Virus record (IMG/VR): IMGVR_UViG_2630968701_000002
Strand: one strand, 5' to 3'
DNA: 64,000 nt
DNA from: a virus
Taxonomy: Duplodnaviria; Heunggongvirae; Uroviricota; Caudoviricetes
The position numbers were made by a program, and so were the translations under genes. Below are positions 7,545-63,600 of the stretch, piece by piece. Under the pieces are notes generated by a model. It searched no databases. It saw only the letters and a program-made list of their open reading frames with translations, and was not told where the DNA came from. The number at the start of each line of letters is the position of its first letter. Within the stretch, counting starts at the first letter, position 1.

Positions 7545-7800
7545 AGTCGCGTGCTTCCCCTTAAGTATGTATATACATACGTAGTCTCTTTAGGAGACGG
7601 GGACTTCATTTCTACAGATACAGCCAAAACTCAGAATTCTTATGACACGAAGGACATAAGCTCCGCATTCAGGCTAATTAACGTAGACCATGTGCAGGTG
7701 CTTCTCTTACTGCATGGAGGAACTTTTGCCTCCATGAGCAACCTCTCATTCTCAGGCAAGGATTTTAAGATCTCCCGGATAAAATACCGGGCTCCGATGT
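7545..7800 (-). ncRNA. candidate TnpB omega/right-end RNA overlapping the tnpB 3' end and the RE
   Basis: Established knowledge: the TnpB guide RNA derives from the 3' end of tnpB plus the RE. This stretch is GC-rich with hairpin-forming segments (cacgactaaagtcgcgtg). Confidence 0.4.
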
Positions 7801-8981
7801 TATAAGATGCGGAAAGATCGCAGTTGTAGACTTTTCCGTTCTGGAACTGGCAGACACTGTAAGATGAAAATCCTGCATGTTTTCCGCGCAGGACTCGTCC
7901 ACTTCCATCATAAGCCAGTCTGGAAGTGTTCCAGGCGCAGATCCGGGCAATATGCATTCCCAGACGATGCGCTTTATCCGTTACGACCCTCTGGACTTCC
8001 TGACTCTTCCACAGGTGCAGCCGCTGTTTTCTGGAACCGCGTTTCTTTCCTTTCTTTTCTAAATATTCAAAGACGATGGCGTCTGCGTTGTAAAGGACTG
8101 CGATATCCATGATAAACTTTGCAGTTTTGACAGAGATTTCATGATTGATCCCGTTCACTTTTGCCCATAACCTCGGCATCTTGCGGTTTCCATGCTGTTG
8201 TGCTTTCTTGATCCGGTTGATGCTGTGCGTCAGACAGTCTTGTTCCTTTGGAAGTTTTAAAAAATGCCTTCCAAGGATAGTGCCGTCACTACGCATCACA
8301 CTGATCGTTGCAGCAGCGTTGATTCCAAGATCGACCGCACAGATGATCCGGTCCGCAACGTCTGTATCACATAATTCGATATATTCTTTCATAGGAAAAT
8401 CCAGGAACCATTCATCTCCACGCTTCTGCAGGATCGGAGAACAATGTTTCCTTGCCTTGCATCTGCGTTCGATATAATCCATGTCAGATCTTCGGAGCTT
8501 GATCGTCAGCCAGTCCCAGGTGTTGCGGATATAGACTTTGATCCTTGCTTCATATTTTCCAATCTGCTGATACATATTTCCACGATACATACATGGATAA
8601 GAGTACCCAGCTTTTGGAAAGGAAGGCTTTCTTCCACGGATCTTTGGATCTTCTTCTTTCCAGTTTTTCAGATTACTTTTATAAGAAGAGACCTTGCCGA
8701 TCGCTTCATTGATCGCACTCCTTGCGAAGATAGCTTGGAAGTTTATAGAACTTCCGATCAAATGACTCATATGGCACTTCTGGGTTTTGCTTTGTCCTGT
8801 GACATAATCTCTCAACATAAATGACCGGGGAACATAAATAGTCTTCCTTGCGGATGTCTTCCCATTTCTGAAGACAAACCTGGATCATAAAATCGACAGC
8901 TTCCCGATACACAGATACTGTTTTTTTAAAGATATGATTGTAATTTTTAATTTTAGCACTGTATGTTGAAAATATCCGCAT
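7640..8981 (-). pseudogene. tnpB: tnpB (IS605 OrfB / RNA-guided nuclease), frameshifted copy
   Basis: Copy 2 is a single 446-aa ORF. Here the frame breaks near 8715, where ctccttgcgaag replaces copy 2's ctcctacgaag (a 1-nt indel), giving ORFs of 91 aa and 392 aa. RuvC-like motifs (AVDLG) and a C-terminal zinc finger (CQFQNGKVYNCDLSASYNIGARY) are present. Confidence 0.8.
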
Positions 8982-10872: not shown

Positions 10873-11249
10873 ATGATTATCCTCTTACTTTTTGTCCAAT
10901 GAACTTTAATATCATGCTTTTTGCAAAGCTCTTCGAAACAATCTTCTGTAACCAAAAAATCACCCTGATAAAAATCATTATTAGCAATTCCAAGATTACT
11001 TTCAAAACCATCTACAAAGACATGTTCTAAGATTCCAGTACGATTTGTAATCCATTTTTTTCGAACATCATGCAAAAACTCTTTTCCATCAATTAGATCG
11101 TCTTCATTGATATCATAAGTATAAAGTTTTTGTATTTCCTCTGGTTTTCCACGAAATGTTATGGCCAGGTCTACAATATTCAATTGTTTTTGGTATAATT
11201 CTCCATTTTCGCCATGTGCGAACAAGAATATTCCTTCTGCTTTATACAT
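10869..11249 (-). CDS. hypothetical protein, a single copy of the same repeat domain
   Basis: MYKAEGIFLFAHGENGELY...FVDGFESNLGIANNDFYQGDFLV. Start overlaps the upstream stop (ATGA). Confidence 0.5.
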   Translation of the reverse strand: MYKAEGIFLFAHGENGELYQKQLNIVDLAITFRGKPEEIQKLYTYDINEDDLIDGKEFLHDVRKKWITNRTGILEHVFVDGFESNLGIANNDFYQGDFLVTEDCFEELCKKHDIKVHWTKSKRIII

Positions 11250-13430: not shown

Positions 13431-13516
13431 CGTCATTAAATTATATTTTAAATATGAGATATAAAGCAAAAGATAAATTTCATATATAAAAAAAGAGACC
13501 AAATGGTCTCTCTTTG
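13431..13516 (-). promoter_or_regulatory. conserved intergenic cassette copy
   Basis: Plus-strand text cgtcattaaattatattttaaatatgagatataaagcaaaagataaatttcatatataaaaaaagagaccaaatggtctc. Confidence 0.6.
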
Positions 13517-14872: not shown

Positions 14873-16285
14873 TCATCCCTTTCCAAGGGATCGTCTTGCT
14901 CCTATCGCCCAGTTCCCACAATGATGCAAAATCTTGAGTTTTGACAGACTGACCTGTTTGTATTTTGGAGATGTCCGGATATATTGGTCATTCTCATCTT
15001 TTACATAACAGGACTTATCAGTAAAGCCAGAGATCCATCCCTTCTTTCCATTCAACTCTACACGATCGAACAGACAGCCAGTGATCGATATCTTCTTCTT
15101 ATTCTTCCTTTTTGTAACAGTAACTGCTTTTGTGTTCTTATCATATCGTGAAGCTTTACGGTTTGGTTCCTTGCGTCCTTTTCTCGGAGTTTCCTCATGT
15201 AAAGAACGTTTCTTTCTTCGGACCTGCTGGATATAGATCACGGGTTCTTTATCCTTTACTGTCATGATCCCAGTCTTTACGATAGCGATCGCAGTCGCAT
15301 CATTTCCATGACTTTTTGGAAGTCTCAATCTCTCACGGTCTGCTTTTGTGATGTTTCCATAGGTAAACGTTGCTCCTGGGAATGCTTCTATCAGACGTTT
15401 CCGTAAGATGTTCATGAAGGTGGCATCTCTCAGTCCTCTGGTGAATTTCTTCTGCTTCTGCATCCACTGATAGAGAATGCCTCCCTGGTGATGGTTCTCT
15501 GTGTTATGGCAATCGCTGCACACCGTAGCCATATATTGTGGATCATCGGTCGCTCCATAACTCCGGTACAGGATATGGTGTACATGCAGTTTTCCGCCTT
15601 TCTTCCCACATACCTGACAAGTGTATCTGTCACGATTGAGAACATAAGCTCGGACATTTTCATAGTCATACTGTGGTCCTTTCTGGTACAGTTCTCCATG
15701 AATCTCAGGATCTTTTAATCTTGCCGGATCAAAACGGCCAAGCTCGATCGAAAGACGGTATCCCTCTGGAAGAAGATCCTGCAGCTTTTTGATCCACCGG
15801 ATATGATGATCTGTCTTTGACTGCAGCGATGGCGGAAGCCACCCTTTCGGCCGTTTGGATGTGAACGTGATCTCTTTTTTCTTCCAGTGCCTTCTCTTTC
15901 GGTCTGGAATCTCACAATAGACACGTTTGGCTTTTGGTCGCCATTTTGGATGACGGTATCTGGTCTTTCGATGACGTCTTCCTCTTCTTGAGGAAGCTCT
16001 TGACTGCATCAGTTTTCTTTTACTCATGGAATCTCTCAGACCGATCTCTTCTTTATGTAAGACTGCTCCATCTTCACGAACGACGGATACTCCGATATGC
16101 TGTGATCCAGTATCGATCCCTAGATAGCCGGATTGTGTCGTACTGCCTGTCTTATAATTCAGTTTTATGGTAAATGGGACCTTCCGATAAACAGAAGCTT
16201 TCCCATGTTTTAGCAATAAACGGGCTTTTCTCTCAGATGTAGGCATCAGCCGGCATCCGTTCAGCCCTACCACGAATACGCTCAT
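14873..16285 (-). CDS. iscB: IscB (OMEGA RNA-guided nuclease: PLMP + RuvC + HNH)
   Basis: Start MSVFVVGLNGCRLMPT (PLMP motif) with AGGAGG RBS. RuvC-I LGIDTGS. HNH CQVCGKKGGKLHVHHI...CSDCHNTENH. 471 aa. Confidence 0.8.
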   Translation of the reverse strand: MSVFVVGLNGCRLMPTSERKARLLLKHGKASVYRKVPFTIKLNYKTGSTTQSGYLGIDTGSQHIGVSVVREDGAVLHKEEIGLRDSMSKRKLMQSRASSRRGRRHRKTRYRHPKWRPKAKRVYCEIPDRKRRHWKKKEITFTSKRPKGWLPPSLQSKTDHHIRWIKKLQDLLPEGYRLSIELGRFDPARLKDPEIHGELYQKGPQYDYENVRAYVLNRDRYTCQVCGKKGGKLHVHHILYRSYGATDDPQYMATVCSDCHNTENHHQGGILYQWMQKQKKFTRGLRDATFMNILRKRLIEAFPGATFTYGNITKADRERLRLPKSHGNDATAIAIVKTGIMTVKDKEPVIYIQQVRRKKRSLHEETPRKGRKEPNRKASRYDKNTKAVTVTKRKNKKKISITGCLFDRVELNGKKGWISGFTDKSCYVKDENDQYIRTSPKYKQVSLSKLKILHHCGNWAIGARRSLGKG

Positions 16286-16590
16286 GGCTGGTCCTCCTTG
16301 TATTGTAATAGCAGGTACACAAAAGTCCTGCTCTCCCGGATGGGAGTGATCACCCTTCGACAATGTTCCAGATACTTCTTGCTTCAGGTCAGTGTTTTCT
16401 TCTCCTGAAAGACATCCGTTGCCTGAACCCTGTTCTCGGCTAGGGTACCACCGGGTCGGGTATTGATATCTGGGACGTAGCACTCAGTATCCAACAAAAA
16501 TGGATTCCCTTGCGCTGAGTCTAGTCAGCATGCCCTTTCGGGGACCATGAAATGACCTTGCACACTTCTTAGTATGTTCGGTTATTCAAT
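16286..16590 (-). ncRNA. candidate IscB omega RNA (5' of iscB)
   Basis: GC-rich, hairpin-rich 300-nt non-coding stretch between the element end and the iscB start, matching the known position of omega RNA. Confidence 0.45.
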
Positions 16591-25597: not shown

Positions 25598-26113
25598 TTA
25601 ATGATCATGGTCCACTGGCAATTGCCACCAGTCAATTCCAAAATGATCGATCATAATCTTTTCATCAAATCCAGCTCCATGAATATAATGCATGACAGCC
25701 ATTAGATAGCATAAAATACGATATCTTGTATGCTGATTCTTTTTGTCATAGTAATGCATGAAAATTTCACAAAACTCGTCATCTTCATATGCATACCAGA
25801 AAAAGAATTCTTTTTCTTTTTCTAAAAACGTATGACACACTGCATTTGCAATTCCATATTTCACATCAAATCTTCGAGTTTTCTTAAGAATTGCAGCAAG
25901 CATTTTAAAAATAAAAACACTGCTCATATGATCTTCTTTGTAAATTCTGATCGCTTTATCTGATGGACGGAATTGATGTACATTTGAAATATAGTTCACT
26001 AGCTTTTTTACTGCAGTTTCATCTACAACCTCGATTTCATAAAAATCTTCGGTGTAAAATCCACCGTTTTTCCCACATAGATCATCTACTAATTTTTTTT
26101 CTTTTGGATTCAT
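25598..26113 (-). CDS. hypothetical protein (same operon as ssb)
   Basis: 171-aa ORF with a 48-nt spacer to ssb and no cassette between them. Confidence 0.45.
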   Translation of the reverse strand: MNPKEKKLVDDLCGKNGGFYTEDFYEIEVVDETAVKKLVNYISNVHQFRPSDKAIRIYKEDHMSSVFIFKMLAAILKKTRRFDVKYGIANAVCHTFLEKEKEFFFWYAYEDDEFCEIFMHYYDKKNQHTRYRILCYLMAVMHYIHGAGFDEKIMIDHFGIDWWQLPVDHDH

Positions 26114-26195
26114 AAATTTTCTCCTTTACTTTTCTCTCTTCGTCATTTCTTGTTACGTATTAAATATGATAGATAAGAAAAAAAATAAAATCGAT

Positions 26196-26283
26196 ATATA
26201 AGATTCTTACATTTCAAAGGAAGCTCGCATTCATCCCAGCCAAACTTTCTTTATGGATGGGGTGTTCTGCTTAAGTCAATAAA
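26196..26283 (-). repeat. solo copy of the TnpB-B element left-end hairpin region (PATE-like fragment), nested between two cassettes
   Basis: About 88% identical to 62516-62600 (gattcttacatttcaaaggaagctcgcat.catccc.gcc.aactttc.tt.tgga.ggggt.ttctgctta..tcaataaa). Confidence 0.5.
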
Positions 26284-26362
26284 TATGAGAGATTTTTTTA
26301 ATTTTCGAAAATCATATAAAAAAAAGAGACTGGTTTTAGCCTCTTTTTCTGGAAATTATTTT

Positions 26363-27212
26363 TTAGTTTTTGCGAGAAAAGCCAAGTTTATTATCAAAAA
26401 TAAAGACTCTATAATTAAATCTGTATGCAATTTTCATTGCTTTCTTTACATCTGTAGAATCTTTTTTCGCCATATGAAATTCATTTAATGATACTTTAAA
26501 AATTCCTAATTTCTCCAAAATATTGATTGTGGAATTATGTGAAACTTCCTTAAATTCAACGATTTCTGATTTAGATAAATCACCATGAATATTCTCACAA
26601 AACAACTCTTTCAAAATTCCCTTGTGCTTGAATGCATTTTCCATGTCATAATTTTGTAATTGATAAACTTCTGTACATGGATATGAAATAGCTCTTTCTT
26701 TCGCTTGCTGATCAAAATGCTGATTATTTGACAAATATAAAACCTGTACAGTATGTCCCTCTAGTAAGAAATTTTGAAAGAACATTCCAATACTCCGTTC
26801 AGTTATCTTACAAAATCTTTCTAAATATTTTTTGATTTCTTCCTCTGGTGCGTCCGTTTTAAAAAATAGAAAATTTTCCATCATTCAAAATAACTTTAAC
26901 AACACGAGGAGTGCCATAATTAATATTTTTCTGCATAACATCTCTGCTTTTTGTCAGATATTCCTCAAATGTTTCATCTGCGATCAAGAAAAACAAAGAT
27001 TCAAAATCATCTTTATTCTCAACATCCAAATACATTTTTAAAAGCTCATCTGAAATTCTTGTTACTTGAAAATCAGATTTTCCCATGATATCAGCCAAGA
27101 CTGTATCAGCATCCTGAATGGCTCCCATTGGCTGGTTTTCTGATAATTTCAATACTTTTTTTGCCAATCTTACACAATTACTCATTTTTTTCTCCTTTTC
27201 TCTGTTCGTCAT
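26363..27212 (-). pseudogene. paralog of 12544-13401, split by a frameshift in a homopolymer
   Basis: 26859-27212 matches the N-terminal half and 26363-26884 the C-terminal half of the 285-aa paralog. The frames join if one base is removed from the run at 26861-26866. Confidence 0.5.
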
Positions 27213-27292
27213 TTCTTGTTATATATTAAATATGAGAGATGAGAGAAAAGATAAAATCCATATATAAGAAAAAGAGATCCGTAGATCTCTCC
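27205..27292 (-). promoter_or_regulatory. conserved intergenic cassette copy
   Basis: Plus-strand text ctgttcgtcatttcttgttatatattaaatatgagagatgagagaaaagataaaatccatatataagaaaaagagatccgtagatctc. Confidence 0.6.
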
Positions 27293-37981: not shown

Positions 37982-38240
37982 TAAAGTCGCGTGCTTCCCC
38001 TTAAGTATGTATATATATACATAGTCTCTTTAGGAGACGGGGACTTCATTTCTACAGATACAGCCAAAACTCAGAATTCTTATGACACGAAGGACATAAG
38101 CTCCGCATTCAGGCTAATTAACGTAGACCATGTGCAGGTGCTTCTCTTACTGCATGGAGGAACTTTTGCCTCCATGAGCAACCTCTCATTCTCAGGCAAG
38201 GATTTTAAGATCTCCCGGATAAAATACCGGGCTCCGATGT
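37982..38240 (-). ncRNA. candidate TnpB omega/right-end RNA
   Basis: Same reasoning as for copy 1. Confidence 0.4.
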
Positions 38241-39420
38241 TATAAGATGCGGAAAGATCGCAGTTGTAGACTTTTCCGTTCTGGAACTGGCAGACACTGT
38301 AAGATGAAAATTCTGCCTGTTTTCCGCGCAGGACTCGTCCACTCCCATCATAAGCCAGTCTGGAAGTGTTCCAGGCACAGATCCGGGCGATATGCATTCC
38401 CAGACGATGTGCTTTATCCGTTACGATCCTCTGGACTTCCTGACTCTTCCACAGGTGCAGCCGCTGTTTTCTGGAACCGCGTTTCTTTCCTTTCTTTTCT
38501 AAATATTCAAAGACGATGGCGTCTGCGTTGTAAAGGGTTGCGACATCCATGATAAACTCTGCAGTTTTGACAGAGATTTCATGATTGATCCCGTTCACTT
38601 TTGCCCATAACCTCGGCATCTTGCGGTTTCCATGCTGCTGTGCTTTCTTGATCCGGTTGATGCTGTGCGTCAGACAGTCTTGTTCCTTTGGAAGTTTCAA
38701 GAAATGTCTTCCAAGGATAGTGCCGTCACTACGCATCACACTGACCGTTGCAGCAGAGTTGATCCCAAGATCGACCGCACAGATGATCCGGTCCGCAACG
38801 TCTGTATCACATAATTCGATATATTCTTTCATAGGAAAATCCAGGAACCATTCATCTCCACGCTTCTGCAGGATCGGAGAACAATGTTTCCTTGCCTTGC
38901 ATCTGCGTTCGATATAATCCATGTCAGATCTTCGGAGCTTGATCGTCAGCCAGTCCCAGGTGTTGCGGATATAGACTTTGATCCTTGCTTCATATTTTCC
39001 AGTCTGCTGATACATATTTCCACGATACATACATGGATAAGAGTACCCAGCTTTTGGAAAGGAAGGCTTTCTTCCACGGATCTTTGGATCTTCTTCTTTC
39101 CAGTTTTTCAGATTACTTTTATAAGAAGAAACCTTCCCGATCGCATCACTGATCGCACTCCTACGAAGATAGCTTGGAAGTTTATAGAACTTCCGATCAA
39201 ATGACTCATATGACACTTCTGGGTTTCGCTTTGTCCTGTGACATAATCTCTCAACATAAATGACCGGAGAACATAAATAGTCTTCCTTGCGGATGTCTTC
39301 CCATTTCTGAAGACAAACCTGGATCATAAAATCGACAGCTTCCCGATACACAGATACTGTTTTTTTAAAGATATGATTGTAATTTTTAATTTTAGCACTG
39401 TATGTTGAAAATATCCGCAT
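38080..39420 (-). CDS. tnpB: TnpB RNA-guided nuclease (IS605 OrfB)
   Basis: 446 aa with RuvC motifs and a zinc finger. Single ORF, unlike copy 1. Confidence 0.85.
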   Translation of the reverse strand: MRIFSTYSAKIKNYNHIFKKTVSVYREAVDFMIQVCLQKWEDIRKEDYLCSPVIYVERLCHRTKRNPEVSYESFDRKFYKLPSYLRRSAISDAIGKVSSYKSNLKNWKEEDPKIRGRKPSFPKAGYSYPCMYRGNMYQQTGKYEARIKVYIRNTWDWLTIKLRRSDMDYIERRCKARKHCSPILQKRGDEWFLDFPMKEYIELCDTDVADRIICAVDLGINSAATVSVMRSDGTILGRHFLKLPKEQDCLTHSINRIKKAQQHGNRKMPRLWAKVNGINHEISVKTAEFIMDVATLYNADAIVFEYLEKKGKKRGSRKQRLHLWKSQEVQRIVTDKAHRLGMHIARICAWNTSRLAYDGSGRVLRGKQAEFSSYSVCQFQNGKVYNCDLSASYNIGARYFIREILKSLPENERLLMEAKVPPCSKRSTCTWSTLISLNAELMSFVS

Positions 39421-46774: not shown

Positions 46775-47707
46775 TTACACAAAATCCCAAATGCTGTTAT
46801 CCGCAGTACTTTTAATTATTTGTGAAGCTCTATCTACTGTTCTTGGAGTTTCAATCGCTTTTGATTCATGTCTTTCCTTTTTTGGACTTTCCTTTTTTTG
46901 ATATTCTGTCCAGCCACTTACATGATCGCAATCTTTCATGTTCATTAATTGAAAGCAAAGTAACTCTGTAAGAATGTCATAACTGTCATTGAACGTAGGA
47001 ATTTTAACGAATAAAACAGTTGTCTGGTCTTTCATCTGATCTAATTCTAGATCATCAGTACTCGTTAATTGTTCAATCATAGGAAGATCAAAAATGGATA
47101 ATTTTGCAGCAAGAGATGCTAAGATACGTCTTTGGTCTTTCCAATGATTGACTTGAAATACTTTCCATTGCTTTACAGCAATATGATCCATACTCTTCTT
47201 TTCCAGATTAAAAAAAAGATCATCTAAATAATGGTAGGTATTCATATCTATATCATTCATCTGAGCATGCAGCATCTTCATAATAGAAGCAAAATTTTGT
47301 TCTTTCTTTGGGCGCTCCATTTTTATATAACAGAGTAAGGCTGTTAACAGCGCAATTTCTGCTCTAGTCATAAATGTTTCTTCATTATTATTTCCCAATT
47401 TATTGATCAGATATCTCGCATAAGACATTGCTTCTGCTTCATTCCTACAATAATACAGAGGATTGTAATGATTCTCTTCTTTCATCTGCACAAGATCAAG
47501 AACTTTTACTTTATATTCTTCTTTTTTAAAACCTGCAGCAGTATGTCTCATGATTTTCCCATTTGGATCATAAATAACAAAACTTTTGCCAATCTGCAAT
47601 ACCCTGTTTTTTTCTTTTATCATTTGTTCCATTGCATCTTCTGCAGAAACAGCTTCATTTGTTATTCCTGCAGCTAATATTTTTTTCATAAATTTTTCTT
47701 GATTCAT
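46775..47707 (-). CDS. hypothetical protein
   Basis: About 310-aa ORF. Confidence 0.45.
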   Translation of the reverse strand: MNQEKFMKKILAAGITNEAVSAEDAMEQMIKEKNRVLQIGKSFVIYDPNGKIMRHTAAGFKKEEYKVKVLDLVQMKEENHYNPLYYCRNEAEAMSYARYLINKLGNNNEETFMTRAEIALLTALLCYIKMERPKKEQNFASIMKMLHAQMNDIDMNTYHYLDDLFFNLEKKSMDHIAVKQWKVFQVNHWKDQRRILASLAAKLSIFDLPMIEQLTSTDDLELDQMKDQTTVLFVKIPTFNDSYDILTELLCFQLMNMKDCDHVSGWTEYQKKESPKKERHESKAIETPRTVDRASQIIKSTADNSIWDFV

Positions 47708-49259: not shown

Positions 49260-49500
49260 AGTGTCAATCAGGTAATAGTTCTTTTTCTCCCTGTTGAACC
49301 AGTAATGGTTGCTTCATAAATAGTCTGTTCCCCTGACATGGAAGTTAGCTTCAAACCGGCTGGCTGTTTGCTTAAGTACATGGACTACCATCTAGCAGTG
49401 TGGTTTCGCATCTGTCCATCTTAAGCTGGATTCTTATATGCGAGGGTGTCGATGCTCCATGATCATGGGTTTTACCAAGCCGATTGAACACTTTAATCTA
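49260..49500 (+). ncRNA. candidate IS110 bridge RNA in the 5' non-coding leader
   Basis: About 250-nt structured, GC-rich, ORF-free segment immediately upstream of the transposase. Bridge RNAs of IS110-group elements are known to sit in this position. Confidence 0.35.
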
Positions 49501-49521
49501 CAACGAAAGAAGGTGATTACA

Positions 49522-50748
49522 ATGAACACACTTTACGTCGGTATTGATGTAAGCAGCAAATCCAATGTCATTTACTTAATGCTTCCAAATGGTGATAAGC
49601 ACAGTAATTTTTCTGTTGCAAACTCACACGAAGGTTCCACCCAGTTGGTAAAAAGAATTCTTTCTGCTTTAACTTCACATTCCCTTGACACGGTTCTAAT
49701 CGGTCTTGAAGCAACCTCTGTTTATGGAGACAATCTCGTGTACTTCTTAAGAGAAGATGCCACTCTGGCGCCGTTTAACAGAAAGATTCATGTCCTCAAT
49801 CCTAAGCAGGTCAAAAAGTTTCATGACGCTTATAATGACCTTCCAAAGAATGATTATGTGGACTCTTTTGTTATTGCCGACTGCCTGCGTTTCGGTAGAA
49901 TCAACAAAGAGGTATATATGGGAGACTATCGTTACAAAGCTCTCCAGAACCTCACTCGGGCACGTTTCTTCGCTGTTCAAAATCTGGTAAAAGAAAAGCA
50001 GCGATTTATGAATGTGCTGTTCAAGAAGTATTCTACGATGACGCAGGAGAAGGTCTTCAGCGATACCTTCAGCACTACCGCCCTTGCTGTCTACGATGAA
50101 TTTGAATCCGCAGAAGCACTGGCAAATATGGACTTACATGAGCTTACTGACTTTATCATTGAAAAAGGAAAGAATCGTTTTCCTGATCCTGATGCAGTAG
50201 CCAAAGCCATACAGAAAGCTGCCCGCAGTTCTTACCGTTTACCAAAAACGGTAAATGATTCTGTCAATCAGGTGCTTTCCATATCCATAACCTCCATGAA
50301 GGCATTGGAATCTCAAATAAAAGAGTTCGATAAAGCTATTAAAGCCCAAATGGAACTCTTGCCAAACGTATTGATATCCATTCCGGGTATCGGACCTGTT
50401 TATTCAGCCGGAATCATGGCTGAAATCGGCGATATCAATCGTTTTAACAGTCAGGCTGCTCTTGCTAAATATGCAGGACTTGCCTGGAAGCAACACCAGT
50501 CCGGTGGCTTCGAGTCCGAAGTTACACGGCTCATTCCATCCGGCAACCGATTTTTAAAGTACTATCTGTGTGAAGCTGCATTTTCTCTTGTAAGATGCGA
50601 CAAGGAATACAGCGACTTCTACCGCCTCAAATATAAAGAGGTAAACAGATGCCAACACAAACGTGCACTCGCATTAACTGCCCGTAAATTTGTGCGCTTA
50701 GTCTTTCGACTGCTGAAAGACAATCGCCTATACTGTCCAGCAAAGTAG
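49522..50748 (+). CDS. IS110-family transposase (DEDD)
   Basis: MNTLYVGIDVSSKS at the N-terminus. C-terminal IPGIGPVYSAGIMAEIGDINRFNSQAALAKYAGL. AAGGTG RBS. Confidence 0.85.
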   Translation: MNTLYVGIDVSSKSNVIYLMLPNGDKHSNFSVANSHEGSTQLVKRILSALTSHSLDTVLIGLEATSVYGDNLVYFLREDATLAPFNRKIHVLNPKQVKKFHDAYNDLPKNDYVDSFVIADCLRFGRINKEVYMGDYRYKALQNLTRARFFAVQNLVKEKQRFMNVLFKKYSTMTQEKVFSDTFSTTALAVYDEFESAEALANMDLHELTDFIIEKGKNRFPDPDAVAKAIQKAARSSYRLPKTVNDSVNQVLSISITSMKALESQIKEFDKAIKAQMELLPNVLISIPGIGPVYSAGIMAEIGDINRFNSQAALAKYAGLAWKQHQSGGFESEVTRLIPSGNRFLKYYLCEAAFSLVRCDKEYSDFYRLKYKEVNRCQHKRALALTARKFVRLVFRLLKDNRLYCPAK

Positions 50749-54768: not shown

Positions 54769-56292
54769 TTATGACACAAAGACCAGACCCTGATTGTGAA
54801 CAACGATCTTGCATTTCTTTGCAGGGAAATCCTTGTCTCTCATTCCAACCGCCTGAAGATATTGTCCATTGCTATGCTGTCCACGCATGACATATCGAAC
54901 GCCTTGATAATAAAAGACAGCTCCTGGCATGAGACGATCCAGACGATTGTAACGCCGGATACTTTTCTTGACTTTTAACTGACTGATCATTTTTCTGGTC
55001 TGTTCTTCTCCATATCTCTCAACCTGTCGTTTTCTCCATCCCTGAAGAGAATCGTCCTTTTGTCCTTCCGCTTTTTTGCGGTTCTTGGCAATTTTCTTTC
55101 CTTCATGATAGTATGCACGAGAGGTCTGAGCTTTGATCCGGCTGCGATCCTGTCTGCGGAATTGCAGGATCTCATGCACATGATCGAACTCTGGGGCTTT
55201 CTCTGGGACATGCTGTAAAGCAAGAACTGCGATACACCAGGCATCGACCTCATGCAGCTGCTCTTCTTTTGTCTTATGATATCCAAGGGATCTTCGGACC
55301 ATGGAGGTATCTCGTCCAGAACAGTAATGAACATGTTCCTTCCCGAATTCCTGTTCCAGTCGTTTGCAGATAAATGGAATCGCCTGATTTAAGACACTGA
55401 CCGCTGCATAACGTTTGTTCAGCCCAGCTTTCTTTTTCTTCAGACGGTCCTCAAATCTTGCATCTTTATGGACTCTCTCATGACATTTGCAGCATAATCC
55501 TGCGATGTTTCCGATCGTGTTGGACCCTTGCATACTCCGTGGTACGATATGATGCCGGTGCTCGATCGGACTGTTACACATTAAACAGTGCCCATCCTGC
55601 AGATCTTCAATGGCTACGTTCAAGTCATCATAACCCTTTAACGGTCCATTCTGGAAATCGACACCACTGATGCTCGGATCTTCCAGAGATAGAAAAGCGA
55701 ACCGGTTGATCTCGATCGCGACATCGGTGATCGGCAGGAATTTCTGCATTTTATGGATCAGATTGATGTGTGTCCGCACCAGATGTTCCGCACTTGGTGT
55801 CAGCCATCCATCTTCTCGTTTTCGATTGCAAAACTTGGCTTCTGTGTTCTTGATCACATTGCATCGTACTCGTTTATCTTTTCCATACATCGGAAGTTTT
55901 CGCATCAGGAATCCAGTCTTGATCATCGTATGACATTTCTTGGCTAGTCGCTGTCTTGCCTTTCGTTCTCCATTTCTGGAAGCTCTGCGATGCTGCTTTC
56001 GTTTTTCCATCAGTTTAACGATCTCTTTATTTCTCGTTTGCACAACCGCTGCGGATAATAGTTCTCCACTCAGAGATACCACGGCCATTCCAATATTAGA
56101 ACGTCCAGGATCTTCTGCGATCGTGACTGGCTGCAAGACTGGTTTGTTTTCATAAGTTAACTGTATCGTAAAAGGGATCTGCCGGAAGACGCGTGCTCTT
56201 CCTGCCTGTAACAGTTTTTCGACATGTCTCTTTCGTTTTGTAGGCATCTGTGGATCTCCATCCATGCCTAAGACATAAATATATTCTGACAT
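54769..56292 (-). CDS. iscB: IscB (OMEGA RNA-guided nuclease)
   Basis: Start MSEYIYVLGMDGDPQMPT (PLMP-type) with GGAGG RBS. RuvC-I EDPGRSNIGMAVV. HNH CLMCNSPIEHRHHIVP...CCKCHERVH. 507 aa. Confidence 0.8.
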   Translation of the reverse strand: MSEYIYVLGMDGDPQMPTKRKRHVEKLLQAGRARVFRQIPFTIQLTYENKPVLQPVTIAEDPGRSNIGMAVVSLSGELLSAAVVQTRNKEIVKLMEKRKQHRRASRNGERKARQRLAKKCHTMIKTGFLMRKLPMYGKDKRVRCNVIKNTEAKFCNRKREDGWLTPSAEHLVRTHINLIHKMQKFLPITDVAIEINRFAFLSLEDPSISGVDFQNGPLKGYDDLNVAIEDLQDGHCLMCNSPIEHRHHIVPRSMQGSNTIGNIAGLCCKCHERVHKDARFEDRLKKKKAGLNKRYAAVSVLNQAIPFICKRLEQEFGKEHVHYCSGRDTSMVRRSLGYHKTKEEQLHEVDAWCIAVLALQHVPEKAPEFDHVHEILQFRRQDRSRIKAQTSRAYYHEGKKIAKNRKKAEGQKDDSLQGWRKRQVERYGEEQTRKMISQLKVKKSIRRYNRLDRLMPGAVFYYQGVRYVMRGQHSNGQYLQAVGMRDKDFPAKKCKIVVHNQGLVFVS

Positions 56293-56520
56293 CCTTGATG
56301 CCTCCTTTCTTTTTTTTGGTGTCATGTAGTCTCTCAGGGATCAACGGGATCCCCGCCTCGGTGGTAAGCCTGTACATGACGAATTTTTGGTCTTCTTAAA
56401 CTTGGTGTCAGCTTGACAAGGTCTGGAACTAGAGAATCCCAGAGTGTCCACTTTCCAAAGAAGATCGCTGACATCTTGTTTCTGCTCATTAACGCACTAA
56501 CTAATTCACAAAACTTCTGC
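56293..56520 (-). ncRNA. candidate IscB-2 omega RNA
   Basis: GC-rich, structured 230-nt non-coding region between the element end and the iscB start. Confidence 0.4.
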
Positions 56521-56969: not shown

Positions 56970-57144
56970 TTCTCCATTCTCCTTCTATCCCAAGATGAAA
57001 CATTTACATTTTCTTCTTTATTTAAATATGCGAGATTTTTCAAAAGATATTTTTCATATATAAGATTTTAAATGATAGAACTGGCTGATATTAACAAAAA
57101 AAAACAGACTAGCGATTGAACAACTAATCTGTTTTTGGTATTTT

Positions 57145-60658: not shown

Positions 60659-60974
60659 CGCTTTCTCTTCCTTCCTTTCTCTTCCTTCAAATCTTTTATA
60701 TTTACATTTTTTAGATTTATTAAGGCATTGATCAATGATGCATTAACAATCTGGCATCCTTCTCTTTTCCGCTAACATGCATTTCGATAGTCTTTATCAC
60801 GTTATATGCAACATACAGAAAAAATATTATTCCGCAGATTGCACAAAATGTTGAGATTATGGGATGATACTGTATGACCTGCAGAAAACTTGCTTGGGGT
60901 GGTATTGGATGGAAAGGATGTGTTTCTTCATATCCTATTGGTTCATGAACTACCACTCCCATGCGGTACATAAT

Positions 60975-61100
60975 CCCTATGGAAGGGGTTTCCAGTAGTC
61001 GTGACAGTTACCCATCTCTGACGAAATATTTCGAAAAAAAAACACCTCGCTGTCCGTACCAACTGAGGCTGGCTCACGCAACCCCTATCTCTTTTACGAG
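60975..61100 (-). ncRNA. candidate TnpB-B omega/right-end RNA
   Basis: GC-rich structured segment directly downstream of the tnpB stop. Confidence 0.35.
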
Positions 61101-62443
61101 AATACTTGTATAACTTTGATATTCTGCAAGAAAGAAAAGTCCGTGATCTTTGAGAAAGTCTCTGGAAATTTCTTTCTTAAGATATTTCCTGCGCCGATCA
61201 GATCTGCATTGAATAGGTTCCCTTCCTTATTCTGATAGAGTCCACGTTTGACTCTTGTTCCGGAAAACTTTGCCTTTTCATCATCCACTCCATACGTTGG
61301 AATATGATCTCCTGCAGTCAGATCCGCTTTTGACGTATAGCTTTCTTCCTGACTGATCACTTCGATCCCGACACGCTCTGCCTTGTACTCGATCATCTTT
61401 CGCAGCTGATAGAATGGCATCTGGACAAAGGACTGTGTATTTTTTCCAAGCTCAATACTCTGTTTCCATTGCTCATTGACTCCGATCACGATCGTAGTGA
61501 TCCCGTGAGACATACATTCCTGAACGATCCTGGAACTGATCTTGTGCATCGCATCGTGGAAGAACAGATCTCTCTTCTGATGCAATCTTCGCATCTGTTT
61601 TGTGTTCAACAATCCCATTTTTGCTGCTTCTTTCGGGTCATGTCCTTTCATTGCGATCGACCGAAGCCTTGCAAGCTGTTTGTTGTACCACTGGTTCTTT
61701 TCTTTGAGCACACCGCCTTTGTACAGCCAGCAATCTCCCTTGCTGCTCACGATGGCTGCGATGTTCTCAACACCAAGATCAATGGCACAGACCCCGGATC
61801 CCTTCACTTTTTCTTCCGGATCTGGGCATTCAAACGTGCAGGCCAATAACAGATCTCCGTAATATGGTTTTACTTTGACTTCCTTTAATCGTCCTTCCGG
61901 TCGATACGGCAGATGGATCGTTTCGTTTGTAAGAGCGAACCGCAGGATATCTCCTTCTTTGATCTTGCAGCCCTGATTGGAAAAAGTGATCGTGGAGATC
62001 GAACGCTTCTTCTTATAGTGTGGCATTTTCGGTTTTCCCAGATACTTTTCCGGATGCTTCTTATATTTTCTCAAAGAAGCTAACCAGCTGCGAAAATCAT
62101 GGACCGCTGCTTTCTGACATTCTTCTGCCGTCTGGGATGGAAGCCCTGCAAAGAAATCAGGATTATCCATCACACGCATCATCCGTTCCAGAAACTTATA
62201 ACTCAGAACAGATTTCGGACGTTTCAGGTGTGGACACAGTTCTAATGTTTCTTCGATCTCACGCTGTACTTCCAGCTCATTCTCTGTCGGATGCTCTTTC
62301 TTCCGAGAAGTAAAGTTCTGTCGGATCCGGAACAATGTCGCATTATAGAGATTGTTTGATAAGTGCATATGATGATCCAGATATTCATATAATCCGGGAT
62401 CTTTCTTCTGTTTTAATACAGTTCTTAACACTCGATATATCAT
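61094..62443 (-). CDS. tnpB: TnpB-like RNA-guided nuclease lacking the zinc-finger cysteines
   Basis: RuvC-I CAIDLGVENIA. RuvC-III NADLIGAGNI. The position normally CxxC...CxxC reads SYTSKADLTAGDHIPTYG. 449 aa. Confidence 0.7.
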   Translation of the reverse strand: MIYRVLRTVLKQKKDPGLYEYLDHHMHLSNNLYNATLFRIRQNFTSRKKEHPTENELEVQREIEETLELCPHLKRPKSVLSYKFLERMMRVMDNPDFFAGLPSQTAEECQKAAVHDFRSWLASLRKYKKHPEKYLGKPKMPHYKKKRSISTITFSNQGCKIKEGDILRFALTNETIHLPYRPEGRLKEVKVKPYYGDLLLACTFECPDPEEKVKGSGVCAIDLGVENIAAIVSSKGDCWLYKGGVLKEKNQWYNKQLARLRSIAMKGHDPKEAAKMGLLNTKQMRRLHQKRDLFFHDAMHKISSRIVQECMSHGITTIVIGVNEQWKQSIELGKNTQSFVQMPFYQLRKMIEYKAERVGIEVISQEESYTSKADLTAGDHIPTYGVDDEKAKFSGTRVKRGLYQNKEGNLFNADLIGAGNILRKKFPETFSKITDFSFLQNIKVIQVFS

Positions 62444-62604
62444 TCCCCGTCATTCCTCCTTTCTTAAGTCTTACATCTTAAATATGATAGATTTTCTGAA
62501 AGATATTTTTCATATATAAGATTCTTACATTTCAAAGGAAGCTCGCATCCATCCCCGCCCAACTTTCATTGTGGACGGGGTATTCTGCTTAGATCAATAA
62601 AAAC

Positions 62605-63600
62605 TCAAATATTTTTCTTTTCTTCATCTTGTAAATCGCCCTCTTTTCTTATGCTTCTCAATTCCTTTCCTATGAAAAACAACAGAATCAAAATAAGAAT
62701 AATCGCCATTACAATTCCGCTTTTGTCCCATTGACCAATCCAAAGCCCTGTTACAACATATTGTAATATAATAATCAAAACGTTCTCATCTTCAGCTCCT
62801 GCAAACAATACTAATAGTGTAGAAAATAAAAATGAGACCATATAAACCAGAAAATATCCATTAGGATAACAGGGCTGTAATTTTGCAGAGAACAATAAGA
62901 ACCTGTCTTTTGTATTTGTAAGTTTTTCTTTTGGTGTTTGATAGAAAGCAAAATCTTTATATAAGCGATCATATTTTGTAGATTTTATGAGACTTTTTCC
63001 ACAAACTGATCCATTCCCAAGCTCATTGGAAAACTTAAAATCAGTAATTGATTTTTTATTTTTCAAACCATAAATTGCAAGATTGTTATATTTTTTTGCA
63101 ACATCATCTAAGGAGTATGTTAAAAATACTTTCTTATGACTCTTTTGAACCACAAGACTTTTCACTGTTTTTAATTCTTGATCCGAAAATTTTTTTGGCA
63201 TCAAAAAGATTTTGTTTCCAGTAAACATAGCTGTTAATTTTCCATGATTGGAACGATAACTGATTTGACATTTTGGTTTGTATACAAAAAAAATATCTGC
63301 ACCTTTAATGTATTTATTATAGCTCTTTTCATTCGTTTCAAATTTCATATGATTTTTATCATTATAATAGTATTTCAACTGTCCTATATCTTTTTTTATG
63401 ACAAAATATTTTATATTACACTCATATTTTTGATATGAATTTTGAACGACTTTTAATTGACCCTCTGTAATTTCTTTGCCATAAAAATTACGGTCCGTTT
63501 CTATCTTATTTTGTCTCAGATTGATACAGAACATCGTAATGATTGGAATCAAAGAAATGATAACTCCAGTATATACAATTATTTTCATTATCTTTTTCAT
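62605..63600 (-). CDS. membrane protein (N- and C-terminal TM helices)
   Basis: 331-aa ORF. Confidence 0.45.
   Translation of the reverse strand: MKKIMKIIVYTGVIISLIPIITMFCINLRQNKIETDRNFYGKEITEGQLKVVQNSYQKYECNIKYFVIKKDIGQLKYYYNDKNHMKFETNEKSYNKYIKGADIFFVYKPKCQISYRSNHGKLTAMFTGNKIFLMPKKFSDQELKTVKSLVVQKSHKKVFLTYSLDDVAKKYNNLAIYGLKNKKSITDFKFSNELGNGSVCGKSLIKSTKYDRLYKDFAFYQTPKEKLTNTKDRFLLFSAKLQPCYPNGYFLVYMVSFLFSTLLVLFAGAEDENVLIIILQYVVTGLWIGQWDKSGIVMAIILILILLFFIGKELRSIRKEGDLQDEEKKNI

What the first reader, a model, noticed from the sequence alone, without database searches (positions are those of the whole stretch)
60975..62603. A third TnpB family lacking zinc-finger cysteines, with a solo copy of its left end elsewhere
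The 449-aa TnpB at 61094-62443 retains RuvC-I (AIDLG) and RuvC-III (NADLIGAGN) but has no cysteines where the CxxC...CxxC zinc finger normally sits. Its left-end hairpin region (62516-62600) recurs at 26196-26283 with about 88% identity, wedged between two regulatory cassettes. This is either a miniature (PATE-like) derivative or a footprint of a deleted element. Differences between the two copies fall in the potential stem CATCCC/GGGGTG.
Basis: seen in the sequence. Interest (0 to 1): 0.55.

Follow-up and report, generated by a model that had tools for sequence, protein, structure and literature searches.

The report
Zinc-finger-less TnpB transposon plus relic end
This is an ordinary small, non-autonomous IS200/IS605-type jumping gene of the gut bacterium Anaerostipes hadrus, whose RNA-guided nuclease belongs to a large, already reported branch without the usual zinc finger; the second "left end" elsewhere in the window is the leftover of another copy that lost its gene by deletion.

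Summary
A 449-aa TnpB is encoded at 61094-62443 (-). It keeps the RuvC residues D222, E366/E367 and D414 and has no cysteine after residue 311. Its left end recurs at 26203-26283 with 89% identity.

Flank comparison and empty sites correct the boundaries to 60945-62596 (1652 bp). The element inserts exactly 3' of TTTAT, makes no target duplication and ends in ...GTAGTTCAT. The left and right ends carry matching imperfect hairpins. A 161-nt structured guide-RNA scaffold (61105-60945) is supported by covariation.

The missing zinc finger is a property of the whole clade, not a defect. It is absent in all 61 homologues aligned and in relatives down to about 35% identity. dN/dS is 0.06. Loss of the finger in large TnpB branches was reported in 2023.

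The solo copy is not a PATE. It has no right end and its hairpin is weakened. Another genome carries the left end plus the start of tnpB at the same site. The relic joins the neighbouring gene's own promoter-like cassette at a 9-nt overlap.

The less expected point is that the inner left end carries a copy of a promoter-like cassette that the host island repeats 18 times. Solo left ends in other contigs also break inside that cassette.

Verdict: a new member of a known kind, of modest interest.

The parts
60945..62596 (-). Complete non-autonomous IS200/IS605 (IS1341-type, TnpB-only) element, 1652 bp, TGATCTAAG...GTAGTTCAT
   Evidence: The same element lies in at least 10 different left flanks and 11 right flanks. 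Empty sites fix both ends to the base.
62597..62601 (-). Target/TAM TTTAT immediately 5' of the left end
   Evidence: Empty-site sequences TTTAT|flank were found for five insertions, one of them TCTAT. Two of the empty sites are in this window, at about 11121-11245 and 47250-47369.
62553..62580 (-). Left-end subterminal imperfect hairpin CCCCGTCCA-N10-TGGGCGGGG with a T.G position, 16 nt from the cleavage site
   Evidence: Single-stranded DNA fold of -9.1 kcal/mol. The variant with T:A folds at -11.4 (z -3.95). The homologous hairpin CCACGTCCAT/ATGGGCGTGG in an autonomous relative shows a compensatory change.
62480..62518 (-). Promoter-like cassette inside the left end (TATATATG-N-TCTATCATATTTA), a copy of the host island's repeated cassette
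   Evidence: The pattern has 18 hits in the window, all on the - strand, with 0 expected. The cassette is carried with the element at all insertion sites. A sigma-70-like match lies at 62513-62484. Promoter function is inferred, not shown.
61094..62443 (-). tnpB, 449 aa, RuvC D222/E366-E367/D414, zinc-free TNB domain
60945..61105 (-). Conserved structured omega-RNA (reRNA) scaffold, starting at the last codons of tnpB and ending at the right end
   Evidence: Six helices with 94% of cells paired. 14 pairs change on both sides against 4.7 in shuffles (0/500). Slid controls give 5 or fewer.
60953..60988 (-). Right-end subterminal hairpin CCCCTTCCAT-N16-ATGGGAGTGG, 8 nt from the cleavage site; also the last omega-RNA stem
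   Evidence: It resembles the left-end hairpin, with G:C changed to T:A and the same T.G position. This is helix 6.
60929..60944 (-). Predicted guide-encoding flank GAACCAATAGGATATG. It lies outside the element and would be read through into the omega-RNA.
   Evidence: Position inferred by analogy with characterised TnpB elements. The flank differs at every insertion site.
26203..26278 (-). Solo left-end relic: the outer 76 nt of a left end with a weakened hairpin
   Evidence: 89% identity to the resident left end. Hairpin fold of -5.2 kcal/mol, z -0.27. L036 carries the left end plus the first ~270 nt of tnpB at the same flank.
26279..26283 (-). TAM TTTAT of the relic, formed by the end of an upstream host cassette box (TCTCTCATATTTA, 26280-26292)
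26194..26202 (-). Deletion junction CTTATATAT, shared by the left-end cassette and the native cassette of the downstream gene
   Evidence: L067 shows the gene at 25598-26113 with the identical cassette and no left end.

Best explanation
The region holds a 1652-bp non-autonomous IS200/IS605-family (IS1341-type) transposon of Anaerostipes hadrus at 60945-62596.

Transposition. A Y1 transposase supplied in trans would excise and insert it as single-stranded DNA. It would recognise the matching imperfect hairpins near both ends and insert exactly 3' of TTTAT. This mechanism is inferred; only the exact insertion 3' of TTTAT is shown.

Nuclease and guide RNA. The element encodes a TnpB nuclease with an intact RuvC site and a zinc-free TNB domain. 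It also encodes a structured omega-RNA that ends at the right end and would read into the flank as a guide. By analogy with characterised TnpB elements, the complex would cut TTTAT-flanked empty donor sites to restore the element by homologous repair. The zinc-free state is the normal, selected condition of a large Firmicutes clade.

Promoter-like cassette. The inner left end carries a copy of the promoter-like cassette that the host island uses in front of most of its genes. This probably drives tnpB and omega-RNA expression (inferred).

Solo copy. The copy at 26203-26283 is the remnant of a different, older insertion of the same element family into the TTTAT of a host cassette. Its tnpB, right end and whatever followed were later deleted. 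The deletion joined the left-end cassette to the native cassette of the gene at 25598-26113, with a 9-nt overlap (CTTATATAT) at the junction.
For: Identity
- Pfam and NCBIfam matches.
- AlphaFold model with pLDDT 89.2, whose best structural matches are Cas12f and TnpB ternary complexes.

Mobility and ends
- Identical or near-identical copies lie in at least 10 left flanks and 11 right flanks.
- Empty sites read TTTAT|flank with no duplication, two of them inside this window.
- The right-end terminus TTCAT is conserved down to 35% protein identity.

Function under selection
- D222, E366, E367 and D414 are invariant in 61 homologues.
- dN/dS is 0.063 against an 85%-identical homologue.
- The omega-RNA helices show covariation.

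Zinc finger
- There are 0-2 cysteines between RuvC-II and RuvC-III in all 61 homologues, never two CxxC pairs. A vestigial single Cys sits at the position aligned with the third ligand of AsCas12f.
- Finegoldia, Bacillus and Alkalihalophilus relatives show the same state.
- The loss in large branches is published.

Transposase
- Relatives carry a divergent Y1_Tnp gene.
- Metagenome contig L016, which also holds an F copy (host not confirmed), has a TnpA+TnpB element with a homologous left-end hairpin.

Solo relic
- L036 has the left end followed by the start of tnpB at the same flank.
- L067 has the downstream gene with its own identical cassette and no left end.
- No right-end copy exists elsewhere in the window.
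- The relic's hairpin is weakened.
- Several other solo left ends in other contigs (L013, L014, L017, L019, L023, L044) all break inside the same cassette.
Against: - No TnpA gene is in the window, so current mobility is not shown for this genome.
- No empty site was found for the window's own copy: all 25 contigs read carry it.
- L036 is only 1.5 kb and ends inside tnpB, so a complete element at the relic site is inferred.
- The overlap at the deletion junction is only 9 nt, so the mechanism is not resolved between short-homology recombination and replication slippage or illegitimate joining.
- Flank shuffling among metagenome contigs may be assembly chimerism.
- The promoter role of the cassette and nuclease activity without zinc are untested.
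- In the window copy the fifth residue of the NADXN motif is Ile, not Asn.
Confidence: 0.85

Rival explanations
1. The solo copy is a miniature, still mobile PATE-like derivative of the element.
For: Miniature derivatives of this element do exist. L032 is a 358-bp element: left end plus the last ~60 nt of tnpB plus the full omega-RNA and right end, formed across a 10-nt repeat CTTAAGAAAG. L019 and L033 show one solo-left-end arrangement behind two different left flanks.
Against: The window copy has no right end, and no right-end-like sequence lies anywhere else in the window. Its hairpin is degraded. It sits at one fixed site in all contigs that carry it. Its inner side is the native cassette of the next gene.
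Confidence: 0.04
2. The 85-nt repeat is a host regulatory element unrelated to transposon ends, and the element merely sits next to one.
For: The inner part of the similarity (62471-62523) is a host-wide cassette. Both copies lie directly upstream of - strand genes.
Against: The outer 76 nt plus hairpin travels with tnpB to at least 10 unrelated sites. It begins at exactly the base where empty sites are interrupted. Its hairpin matches the right-end hairpin and the left end of a TnpA-carrying relative. It occurs only twice in the window.
Confidence: 0.02
3. The TnpB is a decaying or domesticated, non-nuclease protein: loss of the zinc finger signals loss of DNA cleavage, as in nuclease-dead TnpB-like regulators.
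For: The zinc finger is absent. The insertion next to the 331-aa gene is fixed in all 25 contigs read. No TnpA is in the window. NADLN is NADLI in this copy.
Against: The catalytic D/E/D residues are invariant and dN/dS is 0.06. Many recent insertion sites carry near-identical copies. A guide-adjacent omega-RNA is conserved with covariation. Known dead derivatives lose RuvC residues, not only the finger (PMC10691335).
Confidence: 0.07

Closest known systems
IS1341-type (TnpB-only, 'IS605B') non-autonomous members of the IS200/IS605 family, e.g. those catalogued in A. hadrus PEL 85 by Kapitonov et al. 2016 (PMC4810608)
   Same: A single tnpB gene. Subterminal imperfect hairpins at both ends. 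Insertion 3' of a short specific target without duplication. Dependence on a Y1 TnpA in trans. Same host species.
   Different: The target here is TTTAT|, whereas the A. hadrus elements listed there use GT|AA. The left end carries a host-type promoter-like cassette. I could not check whether this exact element has an ISfinder name.
ISDra2 / ISFba1 TnpB-omegaRNA nucleases and Cas12f (solved structures 8exa, 8h1j, 8iaz, 8j12)
   Same: Overall fold (Foldseek E 1e-10 to 1e-15, TM about 0.6). RuvC triad. TNB domain between RuvC-II and RuvC-III. Omega-RNA overlapping the 3' end of the gene and ending at the right end. 5' TAM equal to the transposon target. NAD motif in RuvC-III as in Cas12f.
   Different: There are no CxxC...CxxC ligands. 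The first knuckle is replaced by a longer loop (residues ~368-395) and the second by RGLYxxxxG. Sequence identity is only 12-17%.
TnpB branches that have lost or mutated the C4 zinc finger (Altae-Tran et al. 2023, PNAS, PMC10691335)
   Same: A TnpB lacking the C4 finger but predicted active. The NADXN-type RuvC-III motif of the 'Derived' major clade.
   Different: The paper names RIIIr-4, where the RuvC-III Asp is changed to His, as the major finger-less clade. This protein keeps Asp, so it must belong to one of the other 'large branches' shown only in that paper's supplement, which I could not read.
PATEs (palindrome-associated transposable elements)
   Same: L032 (358 bp; left end + omega-RNA + right end, no ORF) is a PATE-like derivative of this element.
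   Different: The window's solo copy has only a left end, so it cannot be excised by the left end/right end mechanism.

Membership tests
IS200/IS605 family, TnpB-only (IS1341-type) | Encodes a TnpB (OrfB_IS605) protein with a RuvC D-E-D site | tested here: met
IS200/IS605 family, TnpB-only (IS1341-type) | Insertion 3' of a specific 4-5 nt target, without target-site duplication and without terminal inverted repeats | tested here: met
   Empty against occupied sites: TTTAT|element|flank, in five sites
IS200/IS605 family, TnpB-only (IS1341-type) | Similar subterminal imperfect hairpins at the left and right ends | tested here: met
   Left end CCCCGTCCA/TGGGCGGGG and right end CCCCTTCCAT/ATGGGAG(G/T)GG, with the same T.G position. 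The DNA fold of the window's own right end is weak (C.T mismatch, z -0.03), but the stem pairs as RNA and in sister copies.
IS200/IS605 family, TnpB-only (IS1341-type) | Mobilised by a Y1 (HUH) TnpA, in cis or in trans | tested here: inconclusive
   No TnpA is in the window. Relatives at 39-52% identity have an adjacent Y1_Tnp gene. A TnpA element with a homologous left end lies on contig L016, which also holds an F copy.
TnpB/omega-RNA RNA-guided nucleases | Conserved structured RNA overlapping the 3' end of tnpB and ending at the right end next to a variable flank (the guide) | tested here: met
   No Rfam family matches.
TnpB/omega-RNA RNA-guided nucleases | TAM-dependent RNA-guided DNA cleavage | not testable with these tools
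   Needs biochemistry or a plasmid-interference assay
Canonical TnpB with C4 zinc finger in the TNB domain | CxxC...CxxC between RuvC-II and RuvC-III | tested here: not met
   No Cys after residue 311. 0-2 Cys in this segment in 61 homologues. Alignment to AsCas12f places non-ligand residues at the Cys positions.
'Derived' TnpB major clade (PMC10691335) | NADXN motif in RuvC-III | tested here: met
   The family consensus is NADLNGAGNI. The window copy reads NADLIGAGNI.
PATE (for the solo copy at 26203-26283) | Both a left end and a right end flanking a short non-coding core | tested here: not met
   No right-end homology anywhere else in the window. The inner side is the native cassette of the next gene.

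The most novel reading that the evidence does not exclude
The transposon has taken a copy of its host island's own promoter-like cassette into its left end. This would give tnpB and the omega-RNA the same expression signal as the island's genes. It also makes every IS copy a recombination partner for the dozens of same-strand cassettes, so that the IS repeatedly causes deletions or swaps of gene modules and leaves solo left ends as scars. On this reading the element is adapted to one mobile island and helps drive that island's modular turnover.
Probability: 0.4. Interest if true: 0.45.

Novelty: new member of a known kind. Interest (0 to 1): 0.3.

Why it matters
For genome annotation, it gives base-exact ends, the TAM (TTTAT), the omega-RNA scaffold and the guide position for an abundant TnpB element of a common human gut butyrate producer. 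The 90%-identity cluster has 1570 members.

For TnpB biology, it gives a well-sampled, clearly mobile and strongly constrained example showing that the C4 zinc finger is dispensable in a whole Firmicutes clade. This clade is a natural test set for what the finger does, and a possible source of compact nucleases that may not need zinc.

For genome dynamics, it shows how solo ends of IS200/IS605 elements arise, and that an IS-borne copy of a host cassette marks the break points.

None of this overturns current understanding.

Tried and rejected
- Rfam at gathering threshold on the whole window gave no family, so the omega-RNA is not a catalogued one.
- Megablast of the element against phages and of the island against plasmids gave no match.
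- The left-end 26-mer gave 0 hits in genome contigs and in viral contigs. Only the metagenome scan was productive.
- The search for related loci in genome contigs gave only three distant or partial relatives.
- My first alignment of the two copies used the wrong relative orientation and was redone.
- A search for an empty site of the window's own insertion failed. All contigs read carry the element.
- I looked for a TnpA in the window by tblastn with two family TnpAs and found none.
- I considered an IStron (group I intron at the left end). I rejected it because the left end is only ~150 nt and has no intron match.
- I considered that the ORF starting at ATG 60971 inside the right end is a real gene. 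I judged it spurious because the same ATG opens unrelated ORFs at other sites.
- dS against the 72%-identical homologue was saturated, so only the 85% pair gave a usable dN/dS.

Full report
**Observation**

The ORF 61094..62443 on the minus strand encodes 449 aa. It matches Pfam OrfB_IS605 (68.5 bits) and Cas12f1-like_TNB (39.2 bits), and NCBIfam guided_TnpB (169.8 bits, cut-off 100). It has AIDLG (D222), QEESYTS (E366/E367) and NADLIGAGN (D414). Its eight cysteines all lie at or before residue 311, so the TNB segment has none.

The left-end repeat is real. 62519-62601 against 26201-26283 gives 74/83 identical bases in the same orientation. No other copy of this outer segment is in the window.

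**Source**

The exact protein and its neighbours are annotated in Anaerostipes hadrus. The window matches GCA_000876135.1, contig JYFK01000001.1. The window is about 31% GC. The IS-type ORFs stand out at about 45% GC.

**Exact anatomy of the element**

The identical protein occurs in several genomic contexts. A metagenome scan with a left-end 26-mer gave 34 further loci. Alignment of flanks shows that the common sequence starts at TTTATTGATC... and ends at ...GTAGTTCAT.

Empty sites settle the boundaries.
- The L010/L020 insertion site is unoccupied in this window, reading ...AAAAACTTTAT|ACTTATGATATC... at about 11121-11245.
- The right flank of L004 is unoccupied at 47250-47369 and is preceded by TTTAT.
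- Three more empty sites in other loci are preceded by TTTAT, TTTAT and TCTAT.

So the element is TGATC...TTCAT, window 62596 down to 60945 (1652 bp). It inserts exactly 3' of TTTAT and makes no duplication.

The two ends carry matching hairpins.
- The left end has CCCCGTCCA-N10-TGGGCGGGG, 16 nt from the cleavage site (single-stranded DNA fold -9.1 kcal/mol). A natural variant with T:A in place of T.G folds at -11.4, z -3.95.
- The right end has the related hairpin CCCCTTCCAT-N16-ATGGGAG(G/T)GG, 8 nt from its cleavage site.
- Both cleavage sites are TTYAT.

This is the standard IS200/IS605 layout (established knowledge; summarised in PMC4810608).

**Guide RNA**

From the last codons of tnpB to the right end (61105-60945) the sequence is conserved in relatives down to 47% protein identity. 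All of them end in TTCAT or TTCAC.

On 11 distinct sequences, a six-helix structure has 94% of cells paired. 14 pairs change on both sides, against 4.7 in shuffles (0/500). Slid controls give at most 5.

The flank after the right end differs at every site, as expected for a read-through guide. No Rfam family matches.

**The zinc finger**

The finger is missing across the family.
- Sixteen, then 61, homologues (46-85% identity) all lack CxxC...CxxC. They have 0-2 cysteines between RuvC-II and RuvC-III.
- D222, E366, E367 and D414 are invariant in these sequences.
- Many keep one cysteine at RGLY-C or RGLYR-C. This aligns with the third ligand of AsCas12f and is most simply a vestige.
- Relatives on Finegoldia magna, Bacillus cereus and Alkalihalophilus plasmids (35-40% identity) show the same zinc-free segment.

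Selection is strong: dN/dS against an 85%-identical homologue is 0.063.

An AlphaFold model built on the 61-sequence alignment has mean pLDDT 89.2. The TNB blocks score 82-95 and form short strands at 396-399, 402-404 and 410-412 after a long loop. Its best structural matches are Cas12f and TnpB ternary complexes.

Loss or mutation of the C4 finger in 'some large TnpB branches' is already stated in Altae-Tran et al. 2023. That paper also defines the NADXN 'Derived' clade, to which this motif points. The trait is therefore real and selected, but not new.

**Transposase**

No Y1 transposase is in the window. Relatives at 39-52% identity have a divergent Y1_Tnp gene next to tnpB. Contig L016, which also carries an identical F copy, holds a TnpA plus a 457-aa TnpB element. 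That element's left-end hairpin (CCACGTCCAT/ATGGGCGTGG) and right-end terminus are homologous to those here, including a compensatory pair and the same T.G position. Mobilisation in trans is the likely mode. This is inferred.

**The cassette**

The inner left end (62480-62518) is one of 18 strict copies of TATATRTG-N-CATATTT in the window. All 18 are on the minus strand, against 0 expected by chance. About 32 copies of the box TCTnTCATATTTA are also present. The copies inspected typically lie between a terminator hairpin and the ribosome-binding site of a small gene. The cassette travels with the element to all its sites. I read it as the promoter for tnpB, by position only.

**The solo copy**

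Its structure, in the minus-strand reading direction, is:
1. terminator (26319-26350);
2. a complete host cassette ending in ...CATATTTAT;
3. the outer 76 nt of a left end (26278-26203);
4. a second cassette;
5. the gene at 25598-26113.

Five lines of evidence explain it.
- L036 has the same left flank followed by the left end and the first ~270 nt of tnpB.
- L067 has the downstream gene behind the identical second cassette with no left end. So that cassette is native to the gene, and the junction is the shared CTTATATAT at 26194-26202.
- No right-end sequence exists elsewhere in the window.
- The relic's hairpin folds at only -5.2 kcal/mol (z -0.27), in a shifted register. Its 5' arm, CCCCATCCA, matches the L036 variant and not the resident copy. 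The relic therefore derives from a separate insertion.
- Other solo left ends (L013/24/37, L014, L017, L019/33, L023/38/40, L044) are fused to different cassettes, always with the break inside the cassette. L044 shares its site with full copies L025/L035.

The relic is thus a deletion scar, not a PATE. A true miniature does exist elsewhere: L032 is 358 bp, formed across a 10-nt repeat, and keeps both ends and the whole omega-RNA.

**Limits**

- Mobility, promoter use and zinc-free cleavage are not shown experimentally.
- L036 is short and ends inside tnpB.
- The junction overlap is only 9 nt.
- Flank shuffling among contigs may be an assembly artefact.
- The window's own insertion is present in all 25 contigs read, so no empty site confirms its TAM/guide pair directly.

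**Verdict**

This is a well-formed, probably active, non-autonomous IS200/IS605 element with a TnpB from a known zinc-finger-less lineage, plus a decayed solo left end. It is a new member of a known kind. The host-type cassette inside the left end, and its link to repeated deletions, is the only less expected feature.

Noticed in passing
window 1-64000, e.g. 13450-13488, 27228-27266, 57024-57062: The whole window is a one-strand, 31% GC island built of modules: a terminator hairpin, a cassette TATATRTG-N22-TCTnTCATATTTA, often a conserved 5' leader (GTAAcAAGAAATGACGAAcAGAGAAAAGGAG), then a small ORF. There are 18 strict cassettes, all on the minus strand. Module content differs between strains (L067 lacks the 273-aa gene module). 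The island also holds T4SS coupling-protein fragments, SSB and ASCH genes, so it may be part of a conjugative element.
   Followed up: partly
window 38080-39420 and 7640-8818 (-): A second TnpB family is present as one full copy and one N-terminally truncated copy, 97% identical. It matches OrfB_IS605 only weakly. It also lacks CxxC...CxxC and has no obvious RuvC-II glutamate (ICAWNTSR). In L015/L041 the element studied here is inserted inside this family's gene, at TCGATTTTAT|GATCC.
   Followed up: partly
window 14873-16483, 54769-56325 (-) and 49438-50748 (+): Two IscB-like ORFs (RRXRR + HNH, about 30% identical to each other) and an IS110-family transposase. Each is a GC-rich patch in the AT-rich island.
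   Followed up: no
window 60732-60971 (-): An ATG inside the right end (60971) opens an ORF that runs out of the element: 79 aa here and 92-105 aa at other insertion sites. Gene callers annotate it. It is probably spurious, but it is a systematic annotation artefact of this element.
   Followed up: partly
L005, L016, L027, L028 compared with window 60900-62650: Left and right flanks of element copies are combined differently in different metagenome contigs. This reflects either recombination between copies or assembly chimeras at the 1.65-kb repeat.
   Followed up: no
window 61094-61105 and relatives L050, L075, L016: In relatives the TnpB C-terminus ...IPVKGIGA is encoded by the first omega-RNA hairpin (GTATTCCCGTnAAAGGGATAG). 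In the window's subfamily a stop codon sits in the loop of that hairpin, which shortens the protein while keeping the RNA stem.
   Followed up: partly
L019 and L033 (metagenome loci): One solo-left-end arrangement (left end plus a different cassette plus about 100 nt) is found behind two different left flanks. L019 shares its site with the miniature L032. Whether this unit moved or the contigs are chimeric is not resolved.
   Followed up: partly
window 26363-26884 (-): The gene upstream of the relic is 173 aa here but 273-282 aa in most members of its protein cluster, so it is probably truncated in this strain.
   Followed up: no
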